DNA of 64,000 nt, taken from IMG/VR virus record IMGVR_UViG_2609460332_000008. One strand, written 5' to 3'. This DNA is from a virus (lineage: Duplodnaviria; Heunggongvirae; Uroviricota; Caudoviricetes). The notes below the pieces were generated by a model, which made no database searches, was not told the origin of the DNA, and saw nothing but the letters and a program-made list of their open reading frames with translations. The position numbers and the translations under genes were made by a program. Position 1 is the first letter of the stretch; each line of letters starts with the position of its first letter. Below, piece by piece: positions 207 through 33,436 of the stretch.

Positions 207-320
207 TGAAGCGGCGCACGAAAAACGCGAAAACGTTTCACGATAAATGCGAAAAATTTAATTTTCGCGCTTCAAACGAAACAGCGGCATTAACCGCTGT
301 TTTTTTATTCATTAAGTGGG
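207..320. promoter_or_regulatory. Mu right end (attR) with R1-type transposase-binding sequence
   Basis: Begins TGAAGCGGCGCACGAAAAACGCGAAAACGTTTCACGATAAATGCGAAAA, matching the Mu R1 sequence as I recall it. Confidence 0.8.
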
Positions 321-1153: not shown

Positions 1154-1226
1154 GATTCCCCCTGTGTAATAACCAGACATGACCGCCCGGAGGGCTGGGG
1201 GTATTTAATCACAACTGATGCAAACC

Positions 1227-1254
1227 GACGATCGATATGATGCTATCGATCGTC
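1227..1254. promoter_or_regulatory. Palindrome with two GATC sites upstream of com-mom; candidate Dam/OxyR-type control region
   Basis: GACGATCGATA-tgatgc-TATCGATCGTC, 11-bp perfect arms each carrying a GATC, about 75-100 bp upstream of the com start. Confidence 0.5.
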
Positions 1255-1317
1255 ATAAACTATACAAAATGATTATTTATAAGTACGCTCCACATCCACT
1301 TTTCATGCTGAATTGCT

Positions 1318-3135
1318 TCAGTACCGGATCATACCAACATCCATTTCAGGTGAATCCACTAACCAGAAATTTTCTGGTTTTAGCGTCAGGATTATCCAGG
1401 CTGTGTTTGTTGTTGATGGCCACGGAGGTAGCACATCATAGGTTGGATCATCACATGAATCTCTGTAACCAAACTTATTAAAAAGCGGGGCCATTGCAGC
1501 AATGAGATTCACTGCATTCAGCTCGTTACCCAGTTTGCGCTCAAACAGTGCCACGCCCGCCGTTCCTTCCACCCACACGCCGCGACTGTGACCACTGTAA
1601 CCGTAGTCAGGGTGATACGGTGTATAGCCTGTTGTTTCCCGCGTGCCAAATAAAAAACGCCCCATGTACTTACGACATCTTGCCGCTTTCCCGGTATCTA
1701 TATTGGCTATAAACAATCCACCCCAGGAAGACTGATCCAGTGCTGCCGCATTGTCATAGTGTGCCGGATGCACACCCTGACGGAATCGTCCCTCTTCTTC
1801 CACCCACATCCCCCTGATGATGCTTTGCGCCAGTTTTTCTGCACGTTTGGTGAAACCATCAAATCCGAGTCGCCCCATCAGTTCAAACAAAAACCAGATA
1901 TCAACGTTATGTTCCAGCGCGCACCATTCAGCAACAAAACTGGCGTCAAATTCGCCATTTACATAACGACCAAGACCACCTTTATATAAACCTTCTCTCA
2001 GGTCACCTTCTGTTGTCACAAGGAAAGAATCAAGCCAGACAATGCCGGATAACAACTTTTCCCGAACAATATTTACCTGCGCTCCGTCCGGATATTTCTC
2101 CAGATAAAAGGCCAAAGCATAATAAACCCATGCCGCATTCCCCAGGCGGTAATAGGTACGCGGTGACATGGCCGACAGCCTGTTAACAAAAAACTTTACT
2201 CCACCGTTTTCATCAACAAGCGCACACAAGCCCGCAACGTATCTTTCTACAGCCTCATGTCGCTGAACCATCAACGCCAGTGCTGCCAGCGCCTGGTCAT
2301 ACGTGTAACACCGATCTTTCATCACCCTGATCACTTCGGGGTCTGCGTCCTCCGGCATCCAGTAGCTACGAATGAGCAGTGGAAACTCCAGCGTTGTGAT
2401 CCACGCATTATCCTCAATCCGAATAAGACGAAACTGTTTTGCTCCCGTCCAGCAACGTCTGAAATAGAAAGTTCCGTCACTATTCAAATTAGCGTCGCCG
2501 TTAAAATACTCTCCGGTTGTATAAGCATACATTTCGACTTTATACTTTTCTGGTTCAGAAATATCGCAATATCCGTTAACTGCACCGACATAATTAAAAT
2601 CGATATTTTCTTTTATTTTTAAAGATATTGATGTATCAACAACCTCGGGTTGTTCCAGTTTCAGCATGGCTGTCGTACAACGGCTGAGTATGTCAGTAAA
2701 ATTTTCGTAACGCAGACCGGATATATTCCCGGCTATGTTTTGAATAGCTTCCAGAATCTTTACTGCTTGTTGGGATGATGATGCCGCCGTATCTGCATTT
2801 TCCTGCACCTTGTCTGCCAGTTCTTCGAATCTGCGCAAAGATTCTGGTCGTAAGTCAATTTCAGTTGCTCCCAGAAAATCATTAAGTGAACCATCGCGCG
2901 AATCCATATAGACCCGAATGACCCCGATTTCTGCAAGGCGCTGTGAACTGTGTGTCAGACGAACACTATATACTCCGGGCAGCACGGGGAAATCATATTC
3001 ACCGCTCAGAGTGGTTACGTGACTGTAAACACCTCTCAGGATCCCGGGTTGATTGTGTAGTGAGGTCAGGGTTATTGTTGCTCCGCTCAGCGGTTCTCCC
3101 ACAGGGGATGTAATTATACCTTTAAGCTGCGGCAT
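1318..3135 (-). CDS. Receptor-binding protein: Stf-like N-terminal tail-attachment domain fused to a large glycosidase-like (putative depolymerase) C-terminal domain
   Basis: N-terminal ~100 aa align with the lambda-type Stf at 61398 in this window (shared ...VY.DS..G.LNDFLGA...); the C-terminal ~450 aa are rich in Trp/Tyr/Asp, compatible with an alpha/alpha-toroid hydrolase (fold call inferred). Confidence 0.6.
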   Translation of the reverse strand: MPQLKGIITSPVGEPLSGATITLTSLHNQPGILRGVYSHVTTLSGEYDFPVLPGVYSVRLTHSSQRLAEIGVIRVYMDSRDGSLNDFLGATEIDLRPESLRRFEELADKVQENADTAASSSQQAVKILEAIQNIAGNISGLRYENFTDILSRCTTAMLKLEQPEVVDTSISLKIKENIDFNYVGAVNGYCDISEPEKYKVEMYAYTTGEYFNGDANLNSDGTFYFRRCWTGAKQFRLIRIEDNAWITTLEFPLLIRSYWMPEDADPEVIRVMKDRCYTYDQALAALALMVQRHEAVERYVAGLCALVDENGGVKFFVNRLSAMSPRTYYRLGNAAWVYYALAFYLEKYPDGAQVNIVREKLLSGIVWLDSFLVTTEGDLREGLYKGGLGRYVNGEFDASFVAEWCALEHNVDIWFLFELMGRLGFDGFTKRAEKLAQSIIRGMWVEEEGRFRQGVHPAHYDNAAALDQSSWGGLFIANIDTGKAARCRKYMGRFLFGTRETTGYTPYHPDYGYSGHSRGVWVEGTAGVALFERKLGNELNAVNLIAAMAPLFNKFGYRDSCDDPTYDVLPPWPSTTNTAWIILTLKPENFWLVDSPEMDVGMIRY

Positions 3136-6083: not shown

Positions 6084-6525
6084 TAATGGTGGCCTCCCAT
6101 CGGCGGGTGATTTCGATTGTGAGCGTGGTTTTGTCCGGGCGGGTTAACACCACCTGAAAGGCAATACGGTCAGGGACAATGATTCTGGCCGTGACGGCGG
6201 CATTACGGGCGTAACCGGCCCGCAGCAGCGGTTGCATGGACAGCCGCGCGTAATCTTCCACGCGCAGGCGGACATCTTCCGTCAGCTTTTCACGCTCAAG
6301 CAGCCACAGGCGGGAACCCCACGAAAAATCGCTGTACGTGTCGCCCGGCCAGCCGCGCGGGTCGCCGGAGCCGTCAGGAATGACATCATCGTCATCAGCA
6401 CGGGCATCGGTGAAAAGGCAGATAAGAACCTGAGTGACCAGCCCCTCATCCAGCGAGAGGCCGTTATGGGTGACGGTGATGTCACCCCGTGAGAGCATGT
6501 TATTCCAGTGGATTCCTGTCGTCAT
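6073..6525 (-). CDS. Mu gp46-like baseplate protein
   Basis: Synteny between gp45 and gp47 homologues. Confidence 0.65.
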   Translation of the reverse strand: MTTGIHWNNMLSRGDITVTHNGLSLDEGLVTQVLICLFTDARADDDDVIPDGSGDPRGWPGDTYSDFSWGSRLWLLEREKLTEDVRLRVEDYARLSMQPLLRAGYARNAAVTARIIVPDRIAFQVVLTRPDKTTLTIEITRRWEATINAI

Positions 6526-7058
6526 ACGGGCGGTGATGTATTCTCATTGTCGCCGTCCTTATGAATGTGTTCGATGAATGATTTACCGTTGATTCTGACA
6601 TCTTCAGTAAATTCACAGGGACCGACGAATTTCATTTGTTTACCGATAATATTCAGCAATTCGTCGGCGGTGAGATTTACCGTTTTCCCTGAAACGTTTA
6701 ATTGTTCTCCTGTGATTTCAATGACGCCGTTTTCCTTCAGGGTGATGTGTGATTTGCCGTCCCGGTGATAAAGCCGGACATCGCCGGGGGACAGTCCTTT
6801 CGGGCGACATCGCTTGTCCTCCACCGCAATGGCAACCAGCCCGTCACGCCGCCCGCCAACGGCCAGTACAATGGCTTCAGAACCTTCCGGCGGAACGGAA
6901 GTAAACCCGTAGTTCTGGAAGCGTTCCACGTCGTCATCGGTGGCATCTGCCAGCGTCTGAATCTGAAGGTTCTGCCGCTCCAGACTGTCAGACACCATGC
7001 GGACAATGGCACGGTCAACCATCAGCCGCAGACGGCGAGCAATGGCGTTTAATCCCAT
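6522..7058 (-). CDS. Baseplate assembly protein V-like (Mu gp45)
   Basis: Size and synteny. Confidence 0.65.
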   Translation of the reverse strand: MGLNAIARRLRLMVDRAIVRMVSDSLERQNLQIQTLADATDDDVERFQNYGFTSVPPEGSEAIVLAVGGRRDGLVAIAVEDKRCRPKGLSPGDVRLYHRDGKSHITLKENGVIEITGEQLNVSGKTVNLTADELLNIIGKQMKFVGPCEFTEDVRINGKSFIEHIHKDGDNENTSPPV

Positions 7059-8122
7059 GTTGCCACCGCCTTTGCTGATTTCTTCGTCTTCGCTTTCATT
7101 TCCGGCATATCCAGTGATTCAGGCGGAACCAGCGCCAGAACCGTCATCCTCCCCTGTGCGCCATCCGTCCAGGTCACCCCGGATATCAGCCAGGTGGTTT
7201 TCAGGTTCTGAATGCTGTCGTCGATATCGACAAGGCGGTTGGTCTGCCACAGCGGGCCGCTGTCGCCCTGTTCGCGCCAGCCTGCCACCGTGATTTCCGT
7301 CGTGCGGGATTCCCCCAGCATCCGGGCTTTGTACCATTCTCCGCGAATGCTGGCACCGCCCACGGTCAGACTGTCTTCATTGACCAGAATGCGCGGGCGG
7401 TAACGGTTAATTTCCAGGTCTTCGGTGATGTACTGGCGACCGCCCACCATCGAGGCAGGCTGGCTGTCCCACAGTTTGCCACCGGCACTGGTGGTGCCCT
7501 TGATGATGTACTGGCTGTTACGCTCCCGCCAGCTGAAGCGCCCACGGGCGGCGAGGATATTTTTTCCCAGCACCAGTGACACACCCGCGCGAACGGAAGA
7601 GGCGCGGGTGATAATCAGGTTACCTGCGCCGTCAGACGTCAGCAGAACGCCGCGCTGTTTTGCCAGCCGGTCGAGCAGTTCAAAACCCGTTTCACCCTGT
7701 TCCAGAACGACAGACGCAAACGCCTCCCCGGTCGGGGTTTCCGTAATGACGGTTATCCCGAACGGGCAGCAGACATCAGCCGCCACCTGTTCAATCCGCA
7801 CGCCTTTCCATTTCCCGGACGAATGCACCACAGAGCAGTCAACCAGGTCACCGGTTTTGTCGCGTCCCATGACGCGAATCTCCACGTTATCTGCGTCATA
7901 GCTGGGGATAAAATCATCGATATACCCCGTCAGCACGGTATCCGCGCCCAGCCTGACCGTGCAGGGTTGCCCCTCACGAATCACGCGCGGTGCCGCCGCC
8001 GACCAGCGGGTTGTCACACTGAGATCAAACTCACCGGCAATCGCCTTCAGGGAACGGCTGATGGACATTTCCGTCCAGCCTTCCCACAGTTTGCCGTCAA
8101 CGGTAAGAATCACGGATTCCAT
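7049..8122 (-). CDS. Baseplate hub / late control D-like protein (Mu gp44)
   Basis: 357 aa, downstream of the DNA circularisation gene. Confidence 0.65.
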   Translation of the reverse strand: MESVILTVDGKLWEGWTEMSISRSLKAIAGEFDLSVTTRWSAAAPRVIREGQPCTVRLGADTVLTGYIDDFIPSYDADNVEIRVMGRDKTGDLVDCSVVHSSGKWKGVRIEQVAADVCCPFGITVITETPTGEAFASVVLEQGETGFELLDRLAKQRGVLLTSDGAGNLIITRASSVRAGVSLVLGKNILAARGRFSWRERNSQYIIKGTTSAGGKLWDSQPASMVGGRQYITEDLEINRYRPRILVNEDSLTVGGASIRGEWYKARMLGESRTTEITVAGWREQGDSGPLWQTNRLVDIDDSIQNLKTTWLISGVTWTDGAQGRMTVLALVPPESLDMPEMKAKTKKSAKAVATWD

Positions 8123-9396
8123 CAGTCGGTAATCTCCACAGGTTGCGTTGGCAGGATGAATGACGGATGGCGCAGGCGGTTACGCTGCACGATTTCATCC
8201 CGTCGGCTGGTGTCACCATGCTCGCGCCATGCCAGCAATGCGGCAGATGTGGTTGTGGTCAGCGTCACCTGCCGGGTTTCCGGCAGACGGGCGGCACGCT
8301 TGCGGGCATCCGTAATCACGGCCTGCCGTAAATCGCGCAGCGTTCGCCACAATGCCCGCTGGTTATTTTCCACCGCCGCCACCGCCTGCTCATGCAGTTC
8401 AGCCGCCAGCGTGTCACCGGCAGATAACGCCGCATCACTGGTATCGAACGTCATCGAGGCCACGGCATTTGCCTGTCCCAGCAGGGTTTCCAGCACAACC
8501 ACCTGGCGGAAGTCGTCAATGTTCTTCTGCAGGCTGTCAGATACCGGCTGATAATCCGGTGACAGCCCGATAGCAAAGCCAATTTCGCCGTCTGCCACGC
8601 TGCCGGGCTTCACGGTGATATCTTCCGGCAGTGCGCCGGTGGCAACCTGTCGGGCGCGTTCTCCGGCCCACTGGTTGCGTAATGTCGTGTAAACTGCCAG
8701 TGCTTCGGGTGGTTCCGTCACCAGATCAACCACGCCGTCGATGAACGAGGACAACTCACTGACCAGACGCCCCGGCGTGGCAATGATGGTTCCGGCCATC
8801 TCCTTAAAATGGTTCAGCCTGTCCATCCACTGATTCAGTGCCGTCGGTAACGTGGGCAGGTTGGCCACAAGGTTTTCCATATCGGCCAGAAAGCTGTCGG
8901 CCATCTCACCCAGCCCGTCAGGTGCACCGAACCAGTTGCCATCGTCAATGGCCGCTTTTACCGCATCAATGCCCGTCAGCACTTCCTGCTGCGTGTTATC
9001 CGCCGCAGACGGGAACAGACGCTCGCCTGCCTCAAACACTTCAAATGTGACATACGCAATGCCATCTTCCTCCGTGCTGAGGCGATGGGTGACCTTGCCA
9101 ACCTGTACGGTCTGTATCCCGAACCACGGGTGGATAAGCTCACCGGGACCGGGGGTATTAAGCGCGTCTAAAAGGGCGTTTAAATCATCCTGGAAGTTTT
9201 TACCTGGCAGCTTTGCGTTAATCTGCTGTTGCCCCGGAACGGCCCCGTTATCATCCGTCCAGGCAGTTTCGCGCCGGGGATACGCACGGGGAATGGCACG
9301 ACGGCCACCGGTGCCTTCCGTATCCACCAGAAAGAAAGGGACGCCACGAAACGAGGCGTCGCGCAGCCCGTCCCATTTGCCTTTGCTCGTTGTCAT
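8122..9396 (-). CDS. DNA circularisation protein (Mu N/gp43-like)
   Basis: 424 aa immediately after the tape measure gene. Confidence 0.65.
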   Translation of the reverse strand: MTTSKGKWDGLRDASFRGVPFFLVDTEGTGGRRAIPRAYPRRETAWTDDNGAVPGQQQINAKLPGKNFQDDLNALLDALNTPGPGELIHPWFGIQTVQVGKVTHRLSTEEDGIAYVTFEVFEAGERLFPSAADNTQQEVLTGIDAVKAAIDDGNWFGAPDGLGEMADSFLADMENLVANLPTLPTALNQWMDRLNHFKEMAGTIIATPGRLVSELSSFIDGVVDLVTEPPEALAVYTTLRNQWAGERARQVATGALPEDITVKPGSVADGEIGFAIGLSPDYQPVSDSLQKNIDDFRQVVVLETLLGQANAVASMTFDTSDAALSAGDTLAAELHEQAVAAVENNQRALWRTLRDLRQAVITDARKRAARLPETRQVTLTTTTSAALLAWREHGDTSRRDEIVQRNRLRHPSFILPTQPVEITD

Positions 9397-23488: not shown

Positions 23489-24093
23489 TTCGGCCCCGCA
23501 GACATTTTGTGACGGCTCGATTTGCTGTAACGGGCAAAACCGTCAAGGGTTCTTACGCCGAGATAGCCCAGCGCCGGGGTAAGCAACATCAGCGTGATAT
23601 CCCAGTCCGGTGACGGCATATGCAGCGAGATACCTCTGGCACAGGCAATGGCTCCGGCAATCTGGCCGCAGGAGAGCAACAGCACATAGGCCAGACTGCT
23701 GTAACAGGAAAGGCGGGCCAGCAGCGGGCGCGTCTGGCGCACATAGCTGTCCGTGGCGTTGTCACCATTGCGGATGGTTTCCTGCTGTTCGTGGTGTGCG
23801 GCCTGCTGGTCAGCCAGCACCAGCTTCTGCCGTTCCACCTCCAGCTGTTGCAGCTGAATTTTCAGGGTTTCCAGTTGCACCAGTTGCTCCGGTGACAGCA
23901 TCACCAGTTTTTGTTCCAGAATGCGTTGCTGTTCAGCAACGGGAAGGCTTTCCCGGACGCTTTCCACCATACCGGCCACCGAGTCAGCGGCGGCAGATGT
24001 ACTGCCACCAAACCAGCGCCCGACGGAACGAATCAGCCCCGGCCCGGCTTTCAGCAGAACAGAGGCGATGCCTGAAAGGGTTAACGGATCCAC
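23485..24093 (-). CDS. Putative holin-like membrane protein; start inferred at an internal GTG
   Basis: C-terminal hydrophobic segments; GGAGG RBS 7 nt before the GTG overlapping the upstream stop. Confidence 0.5.
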   Translation of the reverse strand: MDPLTLSGIASVLLKAGPGLIRSVGRWFGGSTSAAADSVAGMVESVRESLPVAEQQRILEQKLVMLSPEQLVQLETLKIQLQQLEVERQKLVLADQQAAHHEQQETIRNGDNATDSYVRQTRPLLARLSCYSSLAYVLLLSCGQIAGAIACARGISLHMPSPDWDITLMLLTPALGYLGVRTLDGFARYSKSSRHKMSAGPK

Positions 24094-24494
24094 GGGAAAC
24101 CTCCATACAGATAACGCTGAAGACAGAGCAGACCGCCGCAACTGCCACCACACAGCCAGAACACCGGATGCACCGGTGACATCATCATCAGCGTGCTGAA
24201 GACGCAGCAGAAATATCCCAGCGCCCAGACCACCCATGACCACACGATGATGTGGCGACCAAAAGCCCGGTAACGGACCTCAGGCAGCAGGCGAAATGGC
24301 ACATTCCCGAGGCTTGCGCTGTATGAAAACAACACCACCCCGGCAAAGGACAACAACATCAACACGAACGATCGCCAGCCACATAACATGCTGATGATGA
24401 ACATGCAGAGTGTCAGTCCGGCCAGCGGCCATGGGGTTCTCATCAGTCGGGAACAAAGCAGCCAGTCACACAGTTTTAAAATTTTGTTCATTAC
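24081..24494 (-). CDS. Multi-pass membrane protein in the lysis cassette
   Basis: Several hydrophobic helices; AAGG RBS before MNKILKL... Confidence 0.5.
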   Translation of the reverse strand, partial: VMNKILKLCDWLLCSRLMRTPWPLAGLTLCMFIISMLCGWRSFVLMLLSFAGVVLFSYSASLGNVPFRLLPEVRYRAFGRHIIVWSWVVWALGYFCCVFSTLMMMSPVHPVFWLCGGSCGGLLCLQRYLYGGFPWIR

Positions 24495-24717
24495 CTTTTT
24501 CCACATTGAATTTTTCCCTGTACTTCTGGCACTGCCAGAAAATGTCCCGTGTATCCACGGAGTTCCAGCCACGCATGTAGTAGCTGGCGTGTGTGCCGTC
24601 ATGGCCGGTATAGTCCAGCGGTTTCGGGGGCGGACCTCCGGCCATGCGGTGCAGAACCTCCTGACGCAGGCGGTCACGCCGCCCGGCTTTCAGTGAGGCA
24701 TCCCAGCCTTTGCCCAT
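24466..24717 (-). CDS. Hypothetical protein coupled to the endolysin gene
   Basis: ATG one nt after the endolysin stop (TGAtATG). Confidence 0.4.
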   Translation of the reverse strand: MGKGWDASLKAGRRDRLRQEVLHRMAGGPPPKPLDYTGHDGTHASYYMRGWNSVDTRDIFWQCQKYREKFNVEKGNEQNFKTV

Positions 24718-24718
24718 A

Positions 24719-25315
24719 TCACCCCCGCGTGGCGGACATGATGCCCAGAGGGGTATCGATGATTTCCAGACAGGCGTCGGTCAGTTTTTCCATGCGGTTA
24801 AACCAGCCGTTCAGGTATTTACCCTGGGCGGGTTTTGACTTGATGATGTCGGCATAAAAGCGGGAACGACGGACAATGCAGCGGGCCAGCAACCAGTCCG
24901 GGGTGAACAGACTCACGGCCTTACGGGTACGTGGGCCGATGATGCCGTCAGCATCCACATCAGCGGCTTCCTGCAAAATTTTGATGGCTTTTTTAACGCC
25001 ATGCTGAACCGCTGCATCGAACACAAACATCGCCACGCCATCAGGCCACTGGTCACATCCGGCAGGCAGCCAGTAATCGCGCCAGTAAATCTGCGCGACC
25101 TGTTCGCGGGTTAAATCCTTAATGCGGGTATCCGGTTTGCCGTCGCCGTTGACATCGGTTTTGCCGTCAATCACACCGTCGCGGCGGTCAGAAATGCCGT
25201 ATTTGGTTTCGCCGCCACGGTCAGTGGGGTCATTGACATAGACGCCTTCGATATCGGGACGCAGAATGAAATTCAGCGCATGCTCAAAGGCCGGGGAGAA
25301 TTTTTGATTTTCCAT
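24719..25315 (-). CDS. Endolysin, GH108-type muramidase with peptidoglycan-binding domain
   Basis: ...DPTDRGGETKYGIS... N-terminal motif typical of GH108 followed by a PG-binding-like region. Confidence 0.7.
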   Translation of the reverse strand: MENQKFSPAFEHALNFILRPDIEGVYVNDPTDRGGETKYGISDRRDGVIDGKTDVNGDGKPDTRIKDLTREQVAQIYWRDYWLPAGCDQWPDGVAMFVFDAAVQHGVKKAIKILQEAADVDADGIIGPRTRKAVSLFTPDWLLARCIVRRSRFYADIIKSKPAQGKYLNGWFNRMEKLTDACLEIIDTPLGIMSATRG

Positions 25316-25370
25316 AAAAGCACCTGTGAAGCAGATTTAAACGTGGTCTGCTTCATGGTGCCGGAGGCAT

Positions 25371-25396
25371 AAAAAAAGCCGGATTTACCGGCTTCA
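25371..25396 (-). promoter_or_regulatory. Dyad element, copy 2, about 60 bp upstream of the endolysin gene and just after mor
   Basis: Identical to 17636..17661; minus strand reads AAGCCGGTAAATCCGGCTTTTTTT. Confidence 0.6.
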
Positions 25397-25400
25397 TTGA

Positions 25401-25850
25401 TTAAGGGCGTCGTGGCGGACGACGAACGGGGTGAGGCAGGTTCGGGGAGGGGTAAAACAAATCCGGCTGGTATTTATTGCGCTCCAGACGTCGCATCCGT
25501 TTGATGGCCTTGTAGACGGTTTTATACGTCACCCCGTAACGCTGAACCAGTTCAGGAATATTATGGCCGTTAAAATCACGCCAGATACGCATATCCCGGA
25601 CAAGATTCTCCAGAATATTCCCCCTCGGAACATAAACCTGCATCCCGCCGATATGGCGACAAATCGCCACAACCAGCTCAAGGGAATGGGCAGGGTCTGC
25701 ACCAATCCGGGCCAGTTCTTTACGCAGCAGTGCGTTCAGTTCAGAAAGTAACGCCGGATAAGCGGTGTTTTCCTGGTAATCATGAAGATATTCCAGAACG
25801 CTGTCGTCCCGAAGGTCTTCGAATAAATCCTGCTCTTTCATCTGTTTCAT
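25401..25850 (-). CDS. mor: Mor/C-family transcription activator
   Basis: Matches the Mor/C family as I recall it (DLFEDLRDD..., ...GVTYKTVYKAIKRMRRL... HTH); sits directly after gemA. Confidence 0.8.
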   Translation of the reverse strand: MKQMKEQDLFEDLRDDSVLEYLHDYQENTAYPALLSELNALLRKELARIGADPAHSLELVVAICRHIGGMQVYVPRGNILENLVRDMRIWRDFNGHNIPELVQRYGVTYKTVYKAIKRMRRLERNKYQPDLFYPSPNLPHPVRRPPRRP

Positions 25851-26398
25851 ACAGCAATTCTCCCGCTGTTTCGTGCGCGGGCATACGCACTGGTCAGTGC
25901 ATCATAGCCGCGCAGCTCCCGCCCGGTTTCGCTCACAGGTAAAGGCACACCATGTCGGGCAAAGGCTTCCCGGATGCAGCGCATATGCCACTGTTTGAGC
26001 GTTTCGAGCACAATCTGCAACGATTCCCCGTGACACCATGCCAGCGTGGAAACACCCTGACCGCCATTACGTCTGGCCGTCAGGCGTTCAACGTATTTGT
26101 CCAGCGCGGCGTCGCTGATATCGGAAACGAAACCATCAAGGAACATCTGCTGCCAGATTTTGTAAATCTTCTCGCGCGGTGTGACATGCCCCTTAAAGCG
26201 ACGGCGGGGATGTTTTTTCTGCTTCTTAAAACCGCGCTCTTTCATGGCATCGAGCACCTGTTCCAGTTGTGCGACAGTCAGCTCGCGGCAACTGGTCTTG
26301 CCTGTGCACTGCACCAGAAAGGCGCGGTAAGTGTCATCGTCGAGTTGTAGATCACGACGGGCGACATGAATTAATTTAATCAGGGATGTGCGATTCAT
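25847..26398 (-). CDS. gemA: GemA-like protein (Mu gp16)
   Basis: GGAGG RBS before the ATG at 26398; position before mor. Confidence 0.65.
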   Translation of the reverse strand: MNRTSLIKLIHVARRDLQLDDDTYRAFLVQCTGKTSCRELTVAQLEQVLDAMKERGFKKQKKHPRRRFKGHVTPREKIYKIWQQMFLDGFVSDISDAALDKYVERLTARRNGGQGVSTLAWCHGESLQIVLETLKQWHMRCIREAFARHGVPLPVSETGRELRGYDALTSAYARARNSGRIAV

Positions 26399-32845: not shown

Positions 32846-33436
32846 TTGAAAAGTAACTTTATAGAATCTGGTGATACTGAAAAGTCAATCTGGTGTACGC
32901 CGCAAGAAATTATGGCTGCTGATGGTATGCCTGGATCTGTTGCAGGTGTTCACTATCGGGCAAATGTTCAAGGCTGGACAAAGCGAAAAAAGGAAGGTGT
33001 GAAGGGGGGTAAAGCAGTTGAATACGATGTGATGTCTATGCCCACCAAAGAACGAGAGCAAGTTATTGCACACCTAGGTCTGTCTATTCCTGGCACTGCT
33101 GCTCAAGCTAATGAGCAGCAGGATTCTTCGGAGCTGATAAACAAATTAACCACAACCTTAATCAATATGATTGAAGAACTGGAACCAGATGAAGCACGTA
33201 AGGCACTGAAACTATTAAGCAAAGGTGGGCTACTGGCGTTAATGCCACTTGTATTTAATGAACAGAAACTTTACAGCTTTATAGGATTTTCACAGCAAAG
33301 TATCCAGACGTTGATGATGCTAGATGCATTACCTGAAGAAAAACGCAAAGAGATTTTGTCAAAGTATGGGATTAATGAACAGGAGAGTCTTGTAGCTCCT
33401 TTGCAGGATCCACAAGATGTAAAAAAAGCCGTATAA
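32846..33436 (+). CDS. c: Mu-type repressor c
   Basis: 196 aa, divergent from ner/A/B as in Mu. Confidence 0.85.
   Translation: MKSNFIESGDTEKSIWCTPQEIMAADGMPGSVAGVHYRANVQGWTKRKKEGVKGGKAVEYDVMSMPTKEREQVIAHLGLSIPGTAAQANEQQDSSELINKLTTTLINMIEELEPDEARKALKLLSKGGLLALMPLVFNEQKLYSFIGFSQQSIQTLMMLDALPEEKRKEILSKYGINEQESLVAPLQDPQDVKKAV

What the first reader, a model, noticed from the sequence alone, without database searches (positions are those of the whole stretch)
25316..25400. Second copy of the dyad module, directly upstream of the endolysin gene
An 85-bp gap between mor and the endolysin gene contains the identical 26-mer (25371..25396) plus a second hairpin GAAGCAG...CTGCTTC next to the lys RBS. 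The sequence shows only one Mor/C-family activator in the whole prophage, so late genes may be driven by a two-step cascade (early transcript to Mor to late promoters) rather than Mu's Mor-to-C-to-late three-step scheme.
Basis: inference. Interest (0 to 1): 0.55.

Follow-up and report, generated by a model that had tools for sequence, protein, structure and literature searches.

The report
Mor-activated late promoter fused to terminator
The repeated "dyad module" in this E. coli Mu-like prophage is a copy of phage Mu's Mor-activated middle promoter overlapping a transcription terminator. Here it sits directly in front of the lysis and head genes of a phage lineage that has no C activator, so one activator probably switches on the late genes.

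Summary
The 85-bp mor–lys gap (25316–25400) holds a 26-mer that is identical at 17636–17661, upstream of the head protease gene I, and a second hairpin lies next to the lys ribosome-binding site.

Read on the coding (−) strand, the module aligns base for base with phage Mu's middle promoter Pm. It has the 16-bp Mor-binding site (14–15 of 16 identical), a T-run, and a −10 hexamer at the same spacing. The hairpin plus T-run is also a canonical intrinsic terminator, as annotated in Mu.

Only one Mor/C gene exists in the 64-kb window. The same holds for 69 related loci from other Enterobacterales, where the module always precedes lys and I. At gene I many relatives have lost the T-run but keep the Mor site and the −10. 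A third site, without a hairpin, lies inside a baseplate gene. So the module is an activator site as well as a terminator.

The second hairpin is conserved as a structure. It hides the ribosome-binding site only in read-through RNA, because its 5′ arm lies upstream of the predicted start, as in T4 gene e.

The two-step cascade is supported by inference, not by experiment. I rate it a new variant of a known kind, of moderate interest.

The parts
25401..25850 (-). mor, the only Mor/C-family activator gene in the window. It is 63% identical to Mu Mor and 32% to Mu C.
25383..25398 (-). lys copy: 16-bp Mor-type binding site AATGAAGCCGGTAAAT, predicted positions −51 to −36. It starts 3 nt after the mor stop codon, as in Mu.
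25371..25395 (-). lys copy: intrinsic-terminator-like hairpin GAAGCCGG/TAAAT/CCGGCTTT followed by a T-run (25377–25371). Invariant in all 69 related lys copies.
25355..25360 (-). lys copy: −10-like hexamer CACCAT, 22 nt after the Mor site, the same spacing as TATCCT in Mu Pm. No −35 element.
25347..25347 (-). Predicted transcription start of the Mor-dependent lys transcript. It is placed by homology to the mapped +1 of Mu Pm, ±1–2 nt, and has not been mapped.
   Evidence: inference
25319..25365 (-). Read-through-only hairpin. The inner stem is UGAAGCAGA / UCUGCUUCA. In the outer stem GGCACC (part of the −10) pairs with GGUGCU, which covers the Shine-Dalgarno sequence at 25321–25325. The whole 5′ half lies upstream of the predicted +1.
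24719..25315 (-). GH108 endolysin gene (Glyco_hydro_108 + PG_binding_3), first gene of the operon. It is followed by homologues of Mu middle genes E18 and E19.
17648..17663 (-). gene-I copy: Mor-type site AGTGAAGCCGGTAAAT.
17636..17660 (-). gene-I copy: terminator-like hairpin plus T-run.
17620..17625 (-). gene-I copy: −10 hexamer CATACT, with predicted +1 near 17612. The core CCTTCCGCATACTGAC aligns with Mu PI's CCTCCCGCAAACTGAC.
17595..17617 (-). gene-I copy: hairpin CCGUCG/CGACGG. Its 3′ arm overlaps the Shine-Dalgarno GGAG (17596–17593) and its 5′ arm lies at or before the predicted +1.
16624..17586 (-). Head protease/scaffold gene I, first gene after the second module.
6646..6690 (-). Candidate third Mor-type promoter inside the baseplate-V (Mu gp45-like) gene. 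The site is AGGGAAAACGGTAAAT (6690–6675) and the −10 is TATTAT (6651–6646). It has no hairpin and no T-run.

Best explanation
The module is a compact terminator–promoter cassette of the phage Mu Pm type.

As RNA, on the − strand, GAAGCCGG-UAAAU-CCGGCUUU followed by U7 ends transcription coming from the upstream operon. For the lys copy that is the early operon ending in mor; for the I copy it is the lysis/packaging operon ending in F.

As DNA, the 3–4 nt before the hairpin, its 5′ arm and its loop form the 16-bp binding site for the prophage's single Mor protein, centred about 43.5 bp upstream of the start. Mor replaces the missing −35 contact and recruits sigma-70 RNA polymerase to a weak −10 hexamer (CACCAT or CATACT) placed 22 nt downstream. 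Transcription then starts about 30 nt before lys and about 26 nt before I.

The prophage has no C gene, and the same Mor-type site stands before lys, before I, and probably inside the baseplate gene. So Mor itself is the late-gene activator: a two-tier cascade of early promoter Pe → Mor → late operons.

The second hairpin adds a safety catch. Its 5′ half (the −10 region and the bases up to +1) is present only in RNA that leaked through the terminator. In that RNA it pairs with the Shine-Dalgarno region and blocks translation. Mor-initiated RNA lacks the 5′ half and can be translated.

Shown here: the sequence and spacing homology to the mapped Mu Pm, the single Mor/C gene, the conservation pattern, and the folding contrast. 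Inferred: Mor binding, the start site, termination efficiency and translational gating.
For: 1. Homology to a mapped promoter. Mu Pm was calibrated from published mutant tables: −57 to −52 is GTAAAC, the Mor dyad is −51 to −36 and the Mor footprint is −56 to −36 (PMC4390567; PMC4287176). This puts the Mor site at Mu 9173–9188 (AGTAAAGCCGGTTAAT), the −10 TATCCT at 9211–9216 and +1 at 9224. The window copies align without gaps, with 14 and 15 of 16 site bases identical, the same T-run, and a hexamer with A2/T6 at the same offset. In both Mu and the window the site starts 3 nt after the mor stop codon.

2. Overlap in Mu. The Mu GenBank record annotates a predicted terminator at 9179–9200 inside Pm (9163–9233).

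3. Single activator. Only mor matches a Mor/C profile in the window or Pfam PF08765. 69 related loci (10 from GTDB genomes, 59 of the 60 from IMG/VR; the 60th, L073, carries a frameshifted mor scored as two hits) also have one Mor/C gene within ±10 kb, whereas Mu and Yersinia phage vB_YpM_5 have two.

4. Conservation. All 69 lys-upstream and all 62 I-upstream regions carry the site. The hairpin loop T[A/T]AAT and the bases A1, GAA (4–6) and CGGT (9–12) are invariant or nearly so. A terminator alone does not explain that, because its loop sequence is free to vary.

5. Separation of the two functions. All 33 unique lys variants keep the hairpin and at least 7 T. Only 12 of 33 unique I variants keep the T-run, and stem pairs are broken in up to 36% of them, yet the site and a [C/G]A[C/T]ACT hexamer stay at a spacing of 22–23 nt.

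6. Third site. A site with a position-weight score of 23.0 (true sites score 21.9–25.4) followed by TATTAT lies inside a coding region and has no hairpin. It is conserved in relatives down to about 60% protein identity and ranks 3rd of 518 windows in that gene.

7. No −35. No sigma-70 −35/−10 consensus pair is found in either gap.

8. Gating. The cost of opening −13 to +3 around the start codon is 12.7 kcal/mol in read-through RNA against 5.7 from the predicted +1 for lys (41 unique sequences). For gene I it is 12.2 against 2.8 (42 unique sequences). All 83 differ by at least 2 kcal/mol. Native values exceed shuffled 5′ parts, median z 3.9 and 3.4 (window folds). The arms differ in sequence between loci but the pairing is kept. 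Mu Pm/E18 shows the same contrast, 10.7 against 2.5.
Against: There is no experimental start site, footprint or expression data for this prophage or its relatives, so everything rests on homology to Mu and on conservation.

The −10 hexamers are weak (3–4 of 6 matches).

The window site differs from Mu's at positions 4 and 13, which breaks the formal dyad. Position 13 does not co-vary between the two copies within a genome (Fisher p = 0.13).

In I copies the stem shows compensatory swaps (pair 8–20 CG↔GC, pair 7–21 GC↔AT) even where the T-run is gone. The hairpin or full palindrome may therefore have a role I have not captured.

No Mor-type site precedes com/mom, so the one-activator scheme does not account for every Mu-type late unit.

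RNAalifold on a MAFFT alignment of the leaders found no consensus structure. The gating evidence is per-sequence thermodynamics and depends on the assumed +1.
Confidence: 0.75

Rival explanations
1. The module is only a Rho-independent terminator, duplicated or homogenised at the ends of two operons. Late transcription would start elsewhere or arise by read-through.
For: Both copies have the canonical shape: 8-bp GC-rich stem, 5-nt loop, then 7 T on the coding strand. Hairpin energy is about −12.6 kcal/mol. The Mu record annotates the homologous hairpin as a predicted terminator. Stem covariation is seen in I copies.
Against: The loop sequence and bases upstream of the stem are as conserved as the stem itself. 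21 of 33 unique I variants have lost the T-run, and some have lost stem pairs, yet they keep the 16-mer and a −10 at fixed spacing. A third site has no hairpin. The homologous Mu sequence is the experimentally defined Mor site. No other promoter candidate is found in either gap.
Confidence: 0.07
2. Mor activates only the first (lys) operon. A non-Mor/C regulator encoded there, such as the TraR/DksA-type zinc-finger protein or the gp26-like winged-helix protein, then activates I and the tail genes. This would be a three-step cascade with an unrelated third factor.
For: A TraR/DksA C4 zinc-finger protein and a homologue of the Mu gp26 winged-helix protein are encoded downstream of lys. com/mom has no Mor-type site.
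Against: The I copy carries the same site as the lys copy: 15 of 16 bases in the window, present in 62 of 62 loci, with the same spacing to the −10. The same protein is therefore expected to act at both. Nothing marks a separate operator at I.
Confidence: 0.1
3. The 49-nt repeat is a small mobile or repetitive element (REP- or MITE-like) that landed twice by chance in intergenic gaps.
For: It is an exact 26-mer with inverted-repeat structure, found in intergenic DNA.
Against: There are only two strong copies in 64 kb and none outside the prophage. The copies sit at the same two gene junctions in 69 and 62 related loci from six or more genera. Rfam gives only sub-threshold sroD hits, 25 and 22 bits against a gathering score of 50.
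Confidence: 0.02

Closest known systems
Phage Mu middle promoter Pm with the overlapping hairpin just after mor (Mor-dependent, sigma-70, site centred at −43.5)
   Same: It has the same position, 3 nt after the mor stop codon. The 16-bp site is 14–15 of 16 identical. The CCGGCTTTTTTT segment is identical. The −10 is at the same spacing and there is no −35. The leader has an inverted repeat whose 5′ arm lies before +1. The activator is 63% identical to Mu Mor.
   Different: In Mu, Pm is unique and drives the middle operon E18-E19-gp20-C. Here C is absent. The promoter drives a GH108 endolysin followed by E18/E19 homologues and the late genes, and it is present in two to three copies at late-operon starts.
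[quoted passage not shown]
   Same: The genomic positions match: before the lysis genes, before I, and inside a baseplate-region gene. The −10 core of the window's I promoter is homologous to that of Mu PI. The logic is the same: a weak −10, no −35, and a Mor/C-family site at −43.5 (PMC2582627).
   Different: The activator box is of the Mor type (GAAGCCGGTAAAT), not the C type (ATAACCCC). No C gene exists. Mu Mor and C are reported not to cross-activate (PMC4287176).
Yersinia phage vB_YpM_5 (Muvirus)
   Same: It has mor, then a Pm identical in core to Mu's, then a GH108 gene about 75% identical at the DNA level to the window's lys.
   Different: It still has C and a Mu-type lysozyme further downstream, so it has two Mor/C genes. 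It looks like an intermediate arrangement.
T4 gene e (lysozyme), soc, 49 and I-TevI: the ribosome-binding site is hidden in long early transcripts, and a late promoter lies inside the 5′ arm of the hairpin
   Same: The ribosome-binding site is sequestered only in upstream-initiated RNA. The stage-specific promoter is embedded in the 5′ strand of the structure. A lysis enzyme is protected from premature synthesis (PMC3014915).
   Different: The promoter class differs: sigma-70 plus Mor here, gp55 in T4. The module also includes a terminator, and the same device is used at the head protease gene. It is not demonstrated experimentally here.

Membership tests
Mor-dependent Pm-type promoter (phage Mu) | A Mor/C-family activator is encoded by the same element. 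| tested here: met
   mor at 25401–25850 matches PF08765 at E = 3.6e-30 and is 63% identical to Mu Mor.
Mor-dependent Pm-type promoter (phage Mu) | A 16-bp Mor site (AGTAA-AGCCGG-TTAAT in Mu) centred 43.5 bp upstream of +1. | tested here: met
   AATGAAGCCGGTAAAT and AGTGAAGCCGGTAAAT align without gaps to Mu −51 to −36. The centring assumes the start site, which is predicted.
Mor-dependent Pm-type promoter (phage Mu) | A recognisable −10 hexamer and no −35 hexamer. | tested here: met
   CACCAT and CATACT lie 22 nt after the site; A2 and T6 are conserved across relatives. No −35/−10 consensus pair is found in the gaps.
Mor-dependent Pm-type promoter (phage Mu) | Transcription requires Mor (genetic or in vitro evidence). 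| not testable with these tools
   This needs reporter fusions, in vitro transcription or a footprint.
Intrinsic (Rho-independent) terminator | A GC-rich hairpin immediately followed by a U-run on the transcribed strand. | tested here: met
   8 pairs (5 GC), 5-nt loop, then 7 T at both copies. The hairpin forms in the minimum-free-energy and centroid folds.
Intrinsic (Rho-independent) terminator | 3′ ends of upstream transcripts map to the U-run. | not testable with these tools
   This needs 3′-end mapping (Term-seq).
Mu C-dependent late promoter | The C protein is present. | tested here: not met
   No second Mor/C gene was found in six-frame ORFs or by Pfam.
Mu C-dependent late promoter | A C-type box (ATAACCCC-like) at −43.5. 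| tested here: not met
   Neither copy has it. ATAMCCCC hits in the window are at chance level and none lies at these sites.
T4 gene e-type transcript-dependent translational gating | The Shine-Dalgarno sequence and/or start codon is paired in upstream-initiated RNA. | tested here: met
   The minimum-free-energy fold pairs GGUGC with GCACC. The opening cost is higher in read-through RNA in 83 of 83 unique sequences.
T4 gene e-type transcript-dependent translational gating | The stage-specific promoter starts inside or after the 5′ arm, so its RNA lacks that arm. | tested here: inconclusive
   This holds only if +1 lies 7–8 nt after the hexamer, as mapped for Mu Pm. The start site is not mapped here.
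Any curated Rfam RNA family | A score at or above the family's gathering threshold. | tested here: not met
   Only sroD, at 25.2 and 22.1 bits against a gathering score of 50.

The most novel reading that the evidence does not exclude
A whole clade of enterobacterial Mu-like prophages may run a two-tier lytic programme using a reusable insulated-operon cassette of about 100 bp. One hairpin would serve as the terminator of the preceding operon in RNA and, in DNA, as the Mor-binding site of the next promoter. That promoter's own −10/discriminator bases would double as an anti-Shine-Dalgarno arm that silences any read-through RNA. On this reading Mu's three-tier Mor→C cascade is a derived elaboration, in which C and C-type boxes replaced Mor-type boxes at PI and Plys.
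Probability: 0.45. Interest if true: 0.6.

Novelty: new variant of a known kind. Interest (0 to 1): 0.5.

Why it matters
Mu is the textbook three-stage cascade of Mor, then C, then late genes. This prophage and at least 69 relatives across Escherichia, Klebsiella, Raoultella, Kluyvera, Serratia, Pluralibacter and Brenneria appear to do the job with Mor alone, by placing Pm-type promoters in front of the late operons.

This offers a natural comparison for how a regulatory tier is gained or lost. It also predicts which bases decide Mor versus C specificity, because homologous PI cores carry different boxes.

The module is also a very compact, portable part for synthetic biology or prophage engineering. 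It combines a terminator, an activator-dependent promoter and a translational guard against read-through in about 100 bp.

Finally, it improves annotation. These intergenic hairpins should not be labelled as terminators only.

Tried and rejected
- RNAalifold on a MAFFT alignment of 21 lys leaders gave no consensus structure. The arms differ too much in sequence and length to align by sequence, so I used per-sequence opening energies with shuffled controls instead.

- I tested whether site position 13 (A or T) is concordant between the lys and I copies of the same genome, as a sign of co-evolution with Mor. It is not significant: 17 distinct combinations, Fisher p = 0.13.

- I looked by eye for a Mu-PP-like promoter inside gene N, 300–450 nt upstream of P. 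Nothing was found. The position-weight scan instead found a site in the gp45-like gene.

- I looked for a Mor-type or Mu C-type box upstream of com. Neither is convincing. The GATC cluster is conserved but the activator-box region has diverged and carries an 11-nt deletion relative to Mu.

- The weak third "copy" reported by the repeat finder at 33404–33434 is just the A-rich end of the repressor gene region, not a module.

- Position-weight hits at 304–289, 29144–29129 and 22664–22649 score 10.9–11.6, far below true sites at 21.9 or more, and were dropped. The one at 304–289 is a separate hairpin after mom, near the prophage end.

- Rfam gave only sub-threshold sroD hits.

- Literature searches found no paper describing C-less Mu-like phages with Pm-type late promoters. 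The library lacks most subscription-journal papers, including Artsimovitch & Howe 1996 and Morgan et al. 2002, so prior mention cannot be excluded.

Full report
**Where this is.** The window is identical to the E. coli KFu019 chromosome. It carries a Mu-like prophage on the − strand, from the repressor near 33.4 kb to com/mom near 0.3–1.2 kb. Around the finding the gene order is gemA/gp16 (25847–26398), mor (25401–25850), an 85-bp gap, then a GH108 endolysin gene (24719–25315).

**Observation.** The 26-mer occurs exactly twice, at 17636–17661 and 25371–25396. None of 100 shuffles gave a match. The similarity extends to 49 nt at 86%. The other copy lies between the F-like minor head gene and protease gene I. 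The second hairpin, GAAGCAG…CTGCTTC, is present 2 nt upstream of the lys Shine-Dalgarno sequence. On the coding strand the repeat reads GAAGCCGG-TAAAT-CCGGCTTTTTTT, and the scanner flags both copies as terminator-like.

**What it is homologous to.** In Mu, mor is followed at once by AAAGCCGG-TTAAT-CCGGCTTTTTTT. The GenBank record annotates a predicted terminator (9179–9200) lying inside the Mor-dependent middle promoter Pm (9163–9233).

I fixed the Pm numbering from published data. Positions −57 to −52 are GTAAAC (Table 3 of PMC4390567). The Mor dyad spans −51 to −36 and the footprint −56 to −36 (PMC4287176). The site is 16 bp, centred at −43.5. This puts the Mor site at Mu 9173–9188 (AGTAAAGCCGGTTAAT), the −10 TATCCT at 9211–9216 and +1 at 9224.

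So the Mor site is not the hairpin's own axis. It consists of 3–4 nt upstream of the stem, the 5′ arm and the loop.

Both window copies align to Pm without gaps. The sites are AATGAAGCCGGTAAAT (25398–25383) and AGTGAAGCCGGTAAAT (17663–17648). The CCGGCTTTTTTT segment is identical. A hexamer with A at position 2 and T at position 6 (CACCAT, CATACT) lies exactly 22 nt after the site. The lys copy begins 3 nt after the mor stop codon, as in Mu.

The window Mor is 63% identical to Mu Mor and 32% to Mu C, with a nearly identical helix-turn-helix region.

**Is there a second activator?** No.
- A profile built from Mu Mor, Mu C and the window Mor, searched against all 1011 stop-to-stop segments of at least 35 aa in six frames of the whole window, finds only mor (E = 1.5e-72; next best E = 6.9).
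- Pfam finds PF08765 only in mor among 20 small prophage proteins.
- Mu has E18, E19, gp20 and C between Pm and Plys. Here Pm is followed by the GH108 gene and then by homologues of E18 and of a multi-pass membrane protein like E19.
- Yersinia phage vB_YpM_5 is intermediate: mor, Pm, GH108, a small gene, C, then a Mu-type lysozyme.

**Comparative evidence.** Searching with the Mor protein returned 10 loci from GTDB genomes (Pluralibacter, Raoultella, Klebsiella, Kluyvera, Serratia, Brenneria) and 60 IMG/VR loci. Every one has a single Mor/C gene within ±10 kb; one (L073) has a frameshifted mor that scored as two hits. Only Mu and vB_YpM_5 have two genes.

Upstream regions could be extracted for 69 lys and 62 I homologues, and all carry the module. 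The two classes differ in an informative way.
- In the 33 unique lys variants, every stem pair and a run of at least 7 T are invariant.
- In the 33 unique I variants, only 12 keep the T-run, and pair 9–19 is broken in 36%.
- In those same I variants, A1, GAA (4–6), CGGT (9–12) and AAT (14–16) stay invariant, and these include the hairpin loop.
- A [C/G]A[C/T]ACT hexamer stays 22–23 nt downstream in the I variants.

A terminator gives no reason for a conserved loop or conserved upstream bases. An activator site gives no reason for a perfectly conserved 3′ arm and U-run. Together the pattern indicates both functions. The terminator function is indispensable only after the early operon.

Some stem covariation persists in I copies (pair 8–20 CG↔GC, pair 7–21 GC↔AT). 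I cannot fully explain this.

**A third site.** A weight matrix built from the 16 distinct site variants scores the two window copies at 24.9 and 24.7. It finds one more site in the true range, 23.0 at 6690–6675: AGGGAAAACGGTAAAT, followed after 23 nt by TATTAT. It lies inside the baseplate-V (Mu gp45-like) gene, on the late-gene strand, with no hairpin or T-run.

In 46 relatives with 48–98% protein identity the 16-mer is the 3rd most conserved of 518 windows in the gene. Part of that conservation could come from the encoded GK(T/S)VN peptide. Positionally the site resembles Mu's PP, which also lies inside a gene.

**The I-promoter core.** It is homologous between Mu and the window (CCTCCCGCAAACTGAC against CCTTCCGCATACTGAC). 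The activator box differs: C type in Mu, Mor type here. This fits the published statement that the Mor and C dyads are related but that the two proteins do not cross-activate.

**The second hairpin.** Every lys and I copy has an inverted repeat that begins at or just after the −10 hexamer and ends at or near the Shine-Dalgarno sequence. The sequences differ between loci but pairing is kept, for example GAAGCAG/CTGCTTC, GGGAAAAG/CTTTCCC, GAGAAGG/CCTTCTTC and TGTCCGTC/GACGGACA.

In the window's read-through RNA, the minimum-free-energy fold also pairs GGCACC, which is part of the −10, with GGUGCU, which covers the Shine-Dalgarno sequence. RNA starting at the predicted +1 has no significant structure: −5.7 kcal/mol with z = −0.5 for lys, and −2.3 kcal/mol for I.

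Across unique sequences, the energy needed to open −13 to +3 around the start codon is as follows.

| Leader | Unique sequences | Read-through RNA (kcal/mol) | RNA from predicted +1 (kcal/mol) | Median z against shuffled 5′ parts |
|---|---|---|---|---|
| lys | 41 | 12.7 | 5.7 | 3.9 |
| gene I | 42 | 12.2 | 2.8 | 3.4 |
| Mu Pm/E18 | 1 | 10.7 | 2.5 | not computed |

All 83 unique lys and I sequences differ by at least 2 kcal/mol. Thirteen lys variants could not be scored automatically.

This is the design documented for T4 gene e and for soc, 49 and I-TevI (PMC3014915). It depends on the assumed start site.

**Mechanism.** I conclude that the module is a Pm-type, Mor-dependent sigma-70 promoter overlapping an intrinsic terminator. 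It is used two or three times, so the single Mor protein switches on the late operons directly. A leader hairpin keeps leaked read-through transcripts untranslated.

**Rivals considered.** I considered three rivals: terminator only, an unrelated third-tier regulator, and a mobile repeat. Each is disfavoured for the reasons given in its own section.

**Open points.**
- No Mor-type site precedes com/mom, although mom is 97% identical to Mu's.
- Nothing here has been verified experimentally.
- I found no paper describing this arrangement, but the searchable library is incomplete.

Noticed in passing
window 1157–1320 (− strand), upstream of com (971–1156) and mom (325–1020): Mom is 97% identical to Mu Mom, far closer than Mor (63%). 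The promoter region keeps Mu's GATC cluster, but the C-box region has diverged (TTGTGATTAAATACCCCCAG against TTATGCCCCAATAACCACAC) and carries an 11-nt deletion. There is no Mor-type site, so it is unclear how com/mom is activated in a phage without C.
   Followed up: partly
window 17676–17760 (− strand), F–I intergenic region upstream of the module: Repeated GTTTTTGAAG / GTTTTGAAGG motifs align with Mu 17905–17945 (GGGATTTTTAAACCGGTATTTAACGG), next to Mu's annotated gyrase cut site (17879/17880), and with AAACGCGCCACGGCGTTTTTGAACGGGGTTTGAAC in many relatives. This is probably the counterpart of Mu's central strong gyrase site region.
   Followed up: partly
window 6646–6690 (− strand), inside the baseplate-V (gp45-like) gene 6525–7061: A third Mor-type site (score 23.0) is followed after 23 nt by TATTAT, and is conserved in relatives. 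It is a candidate internal late promoter for the gp46–gp48 and tail-fibre genes, analogous to Mu PP.
   Followed up: partly
window 25401–25460 (− strand), C-terminus of Mor: The window Mor ends in ...YQPDLFYPSPNLPHPVRRPPRRP. The QPDLF-proline motif resembles the tail of Mu C (HQPDLFSPETPK) rather than that of Mu Mor (YQPSLL), and there is an extra Pro/Arg-rich extension of about 17 aa. Most C-less relatives match only residues 8–132.
   Followed up: no
window 24081–24717 (− strand); L003 14273–15591: The genes after the GH108 endolysin are homologues of Mu middle-operon genes E18 (83 aa, MGKGWDASL...) and of a multi-pass membrane protein like E19. In Yersinia phage vB_YpM_5 the GH108 gene sits in the middle operon before C. 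Mu's middle operon therefore looks like the front end of this lineage's lysis operon.
   Followed up: partly
L004–L013, between the mor stop and the module (about 330–540 nt): In the non-E. coli relatives a small extra ORF, often with a signal-peptide- or membrane-like N-terminus, is inserted between mor and the terminator/promoter module. It resembles a moron at the end of the early operon.
   Followed up: no
window 289–304 (− strand), just downstream of mom near the prophage right end: Hairpin AACAGCGG-TTAAT-GCCGCTGTT with the same TTAAT loop as Mu's Pm hairpin. It scores only 11.6 on the Mor-site matrix and is probably the mom terminator.
   Followed up: no
L062–L064, lys leader: In these loci the lys leader itself contains a second CCGGATTAACCGG hairpin, a near-copy of the module's core in inverted orientation, just downstream of the −10.
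   Followed up: no
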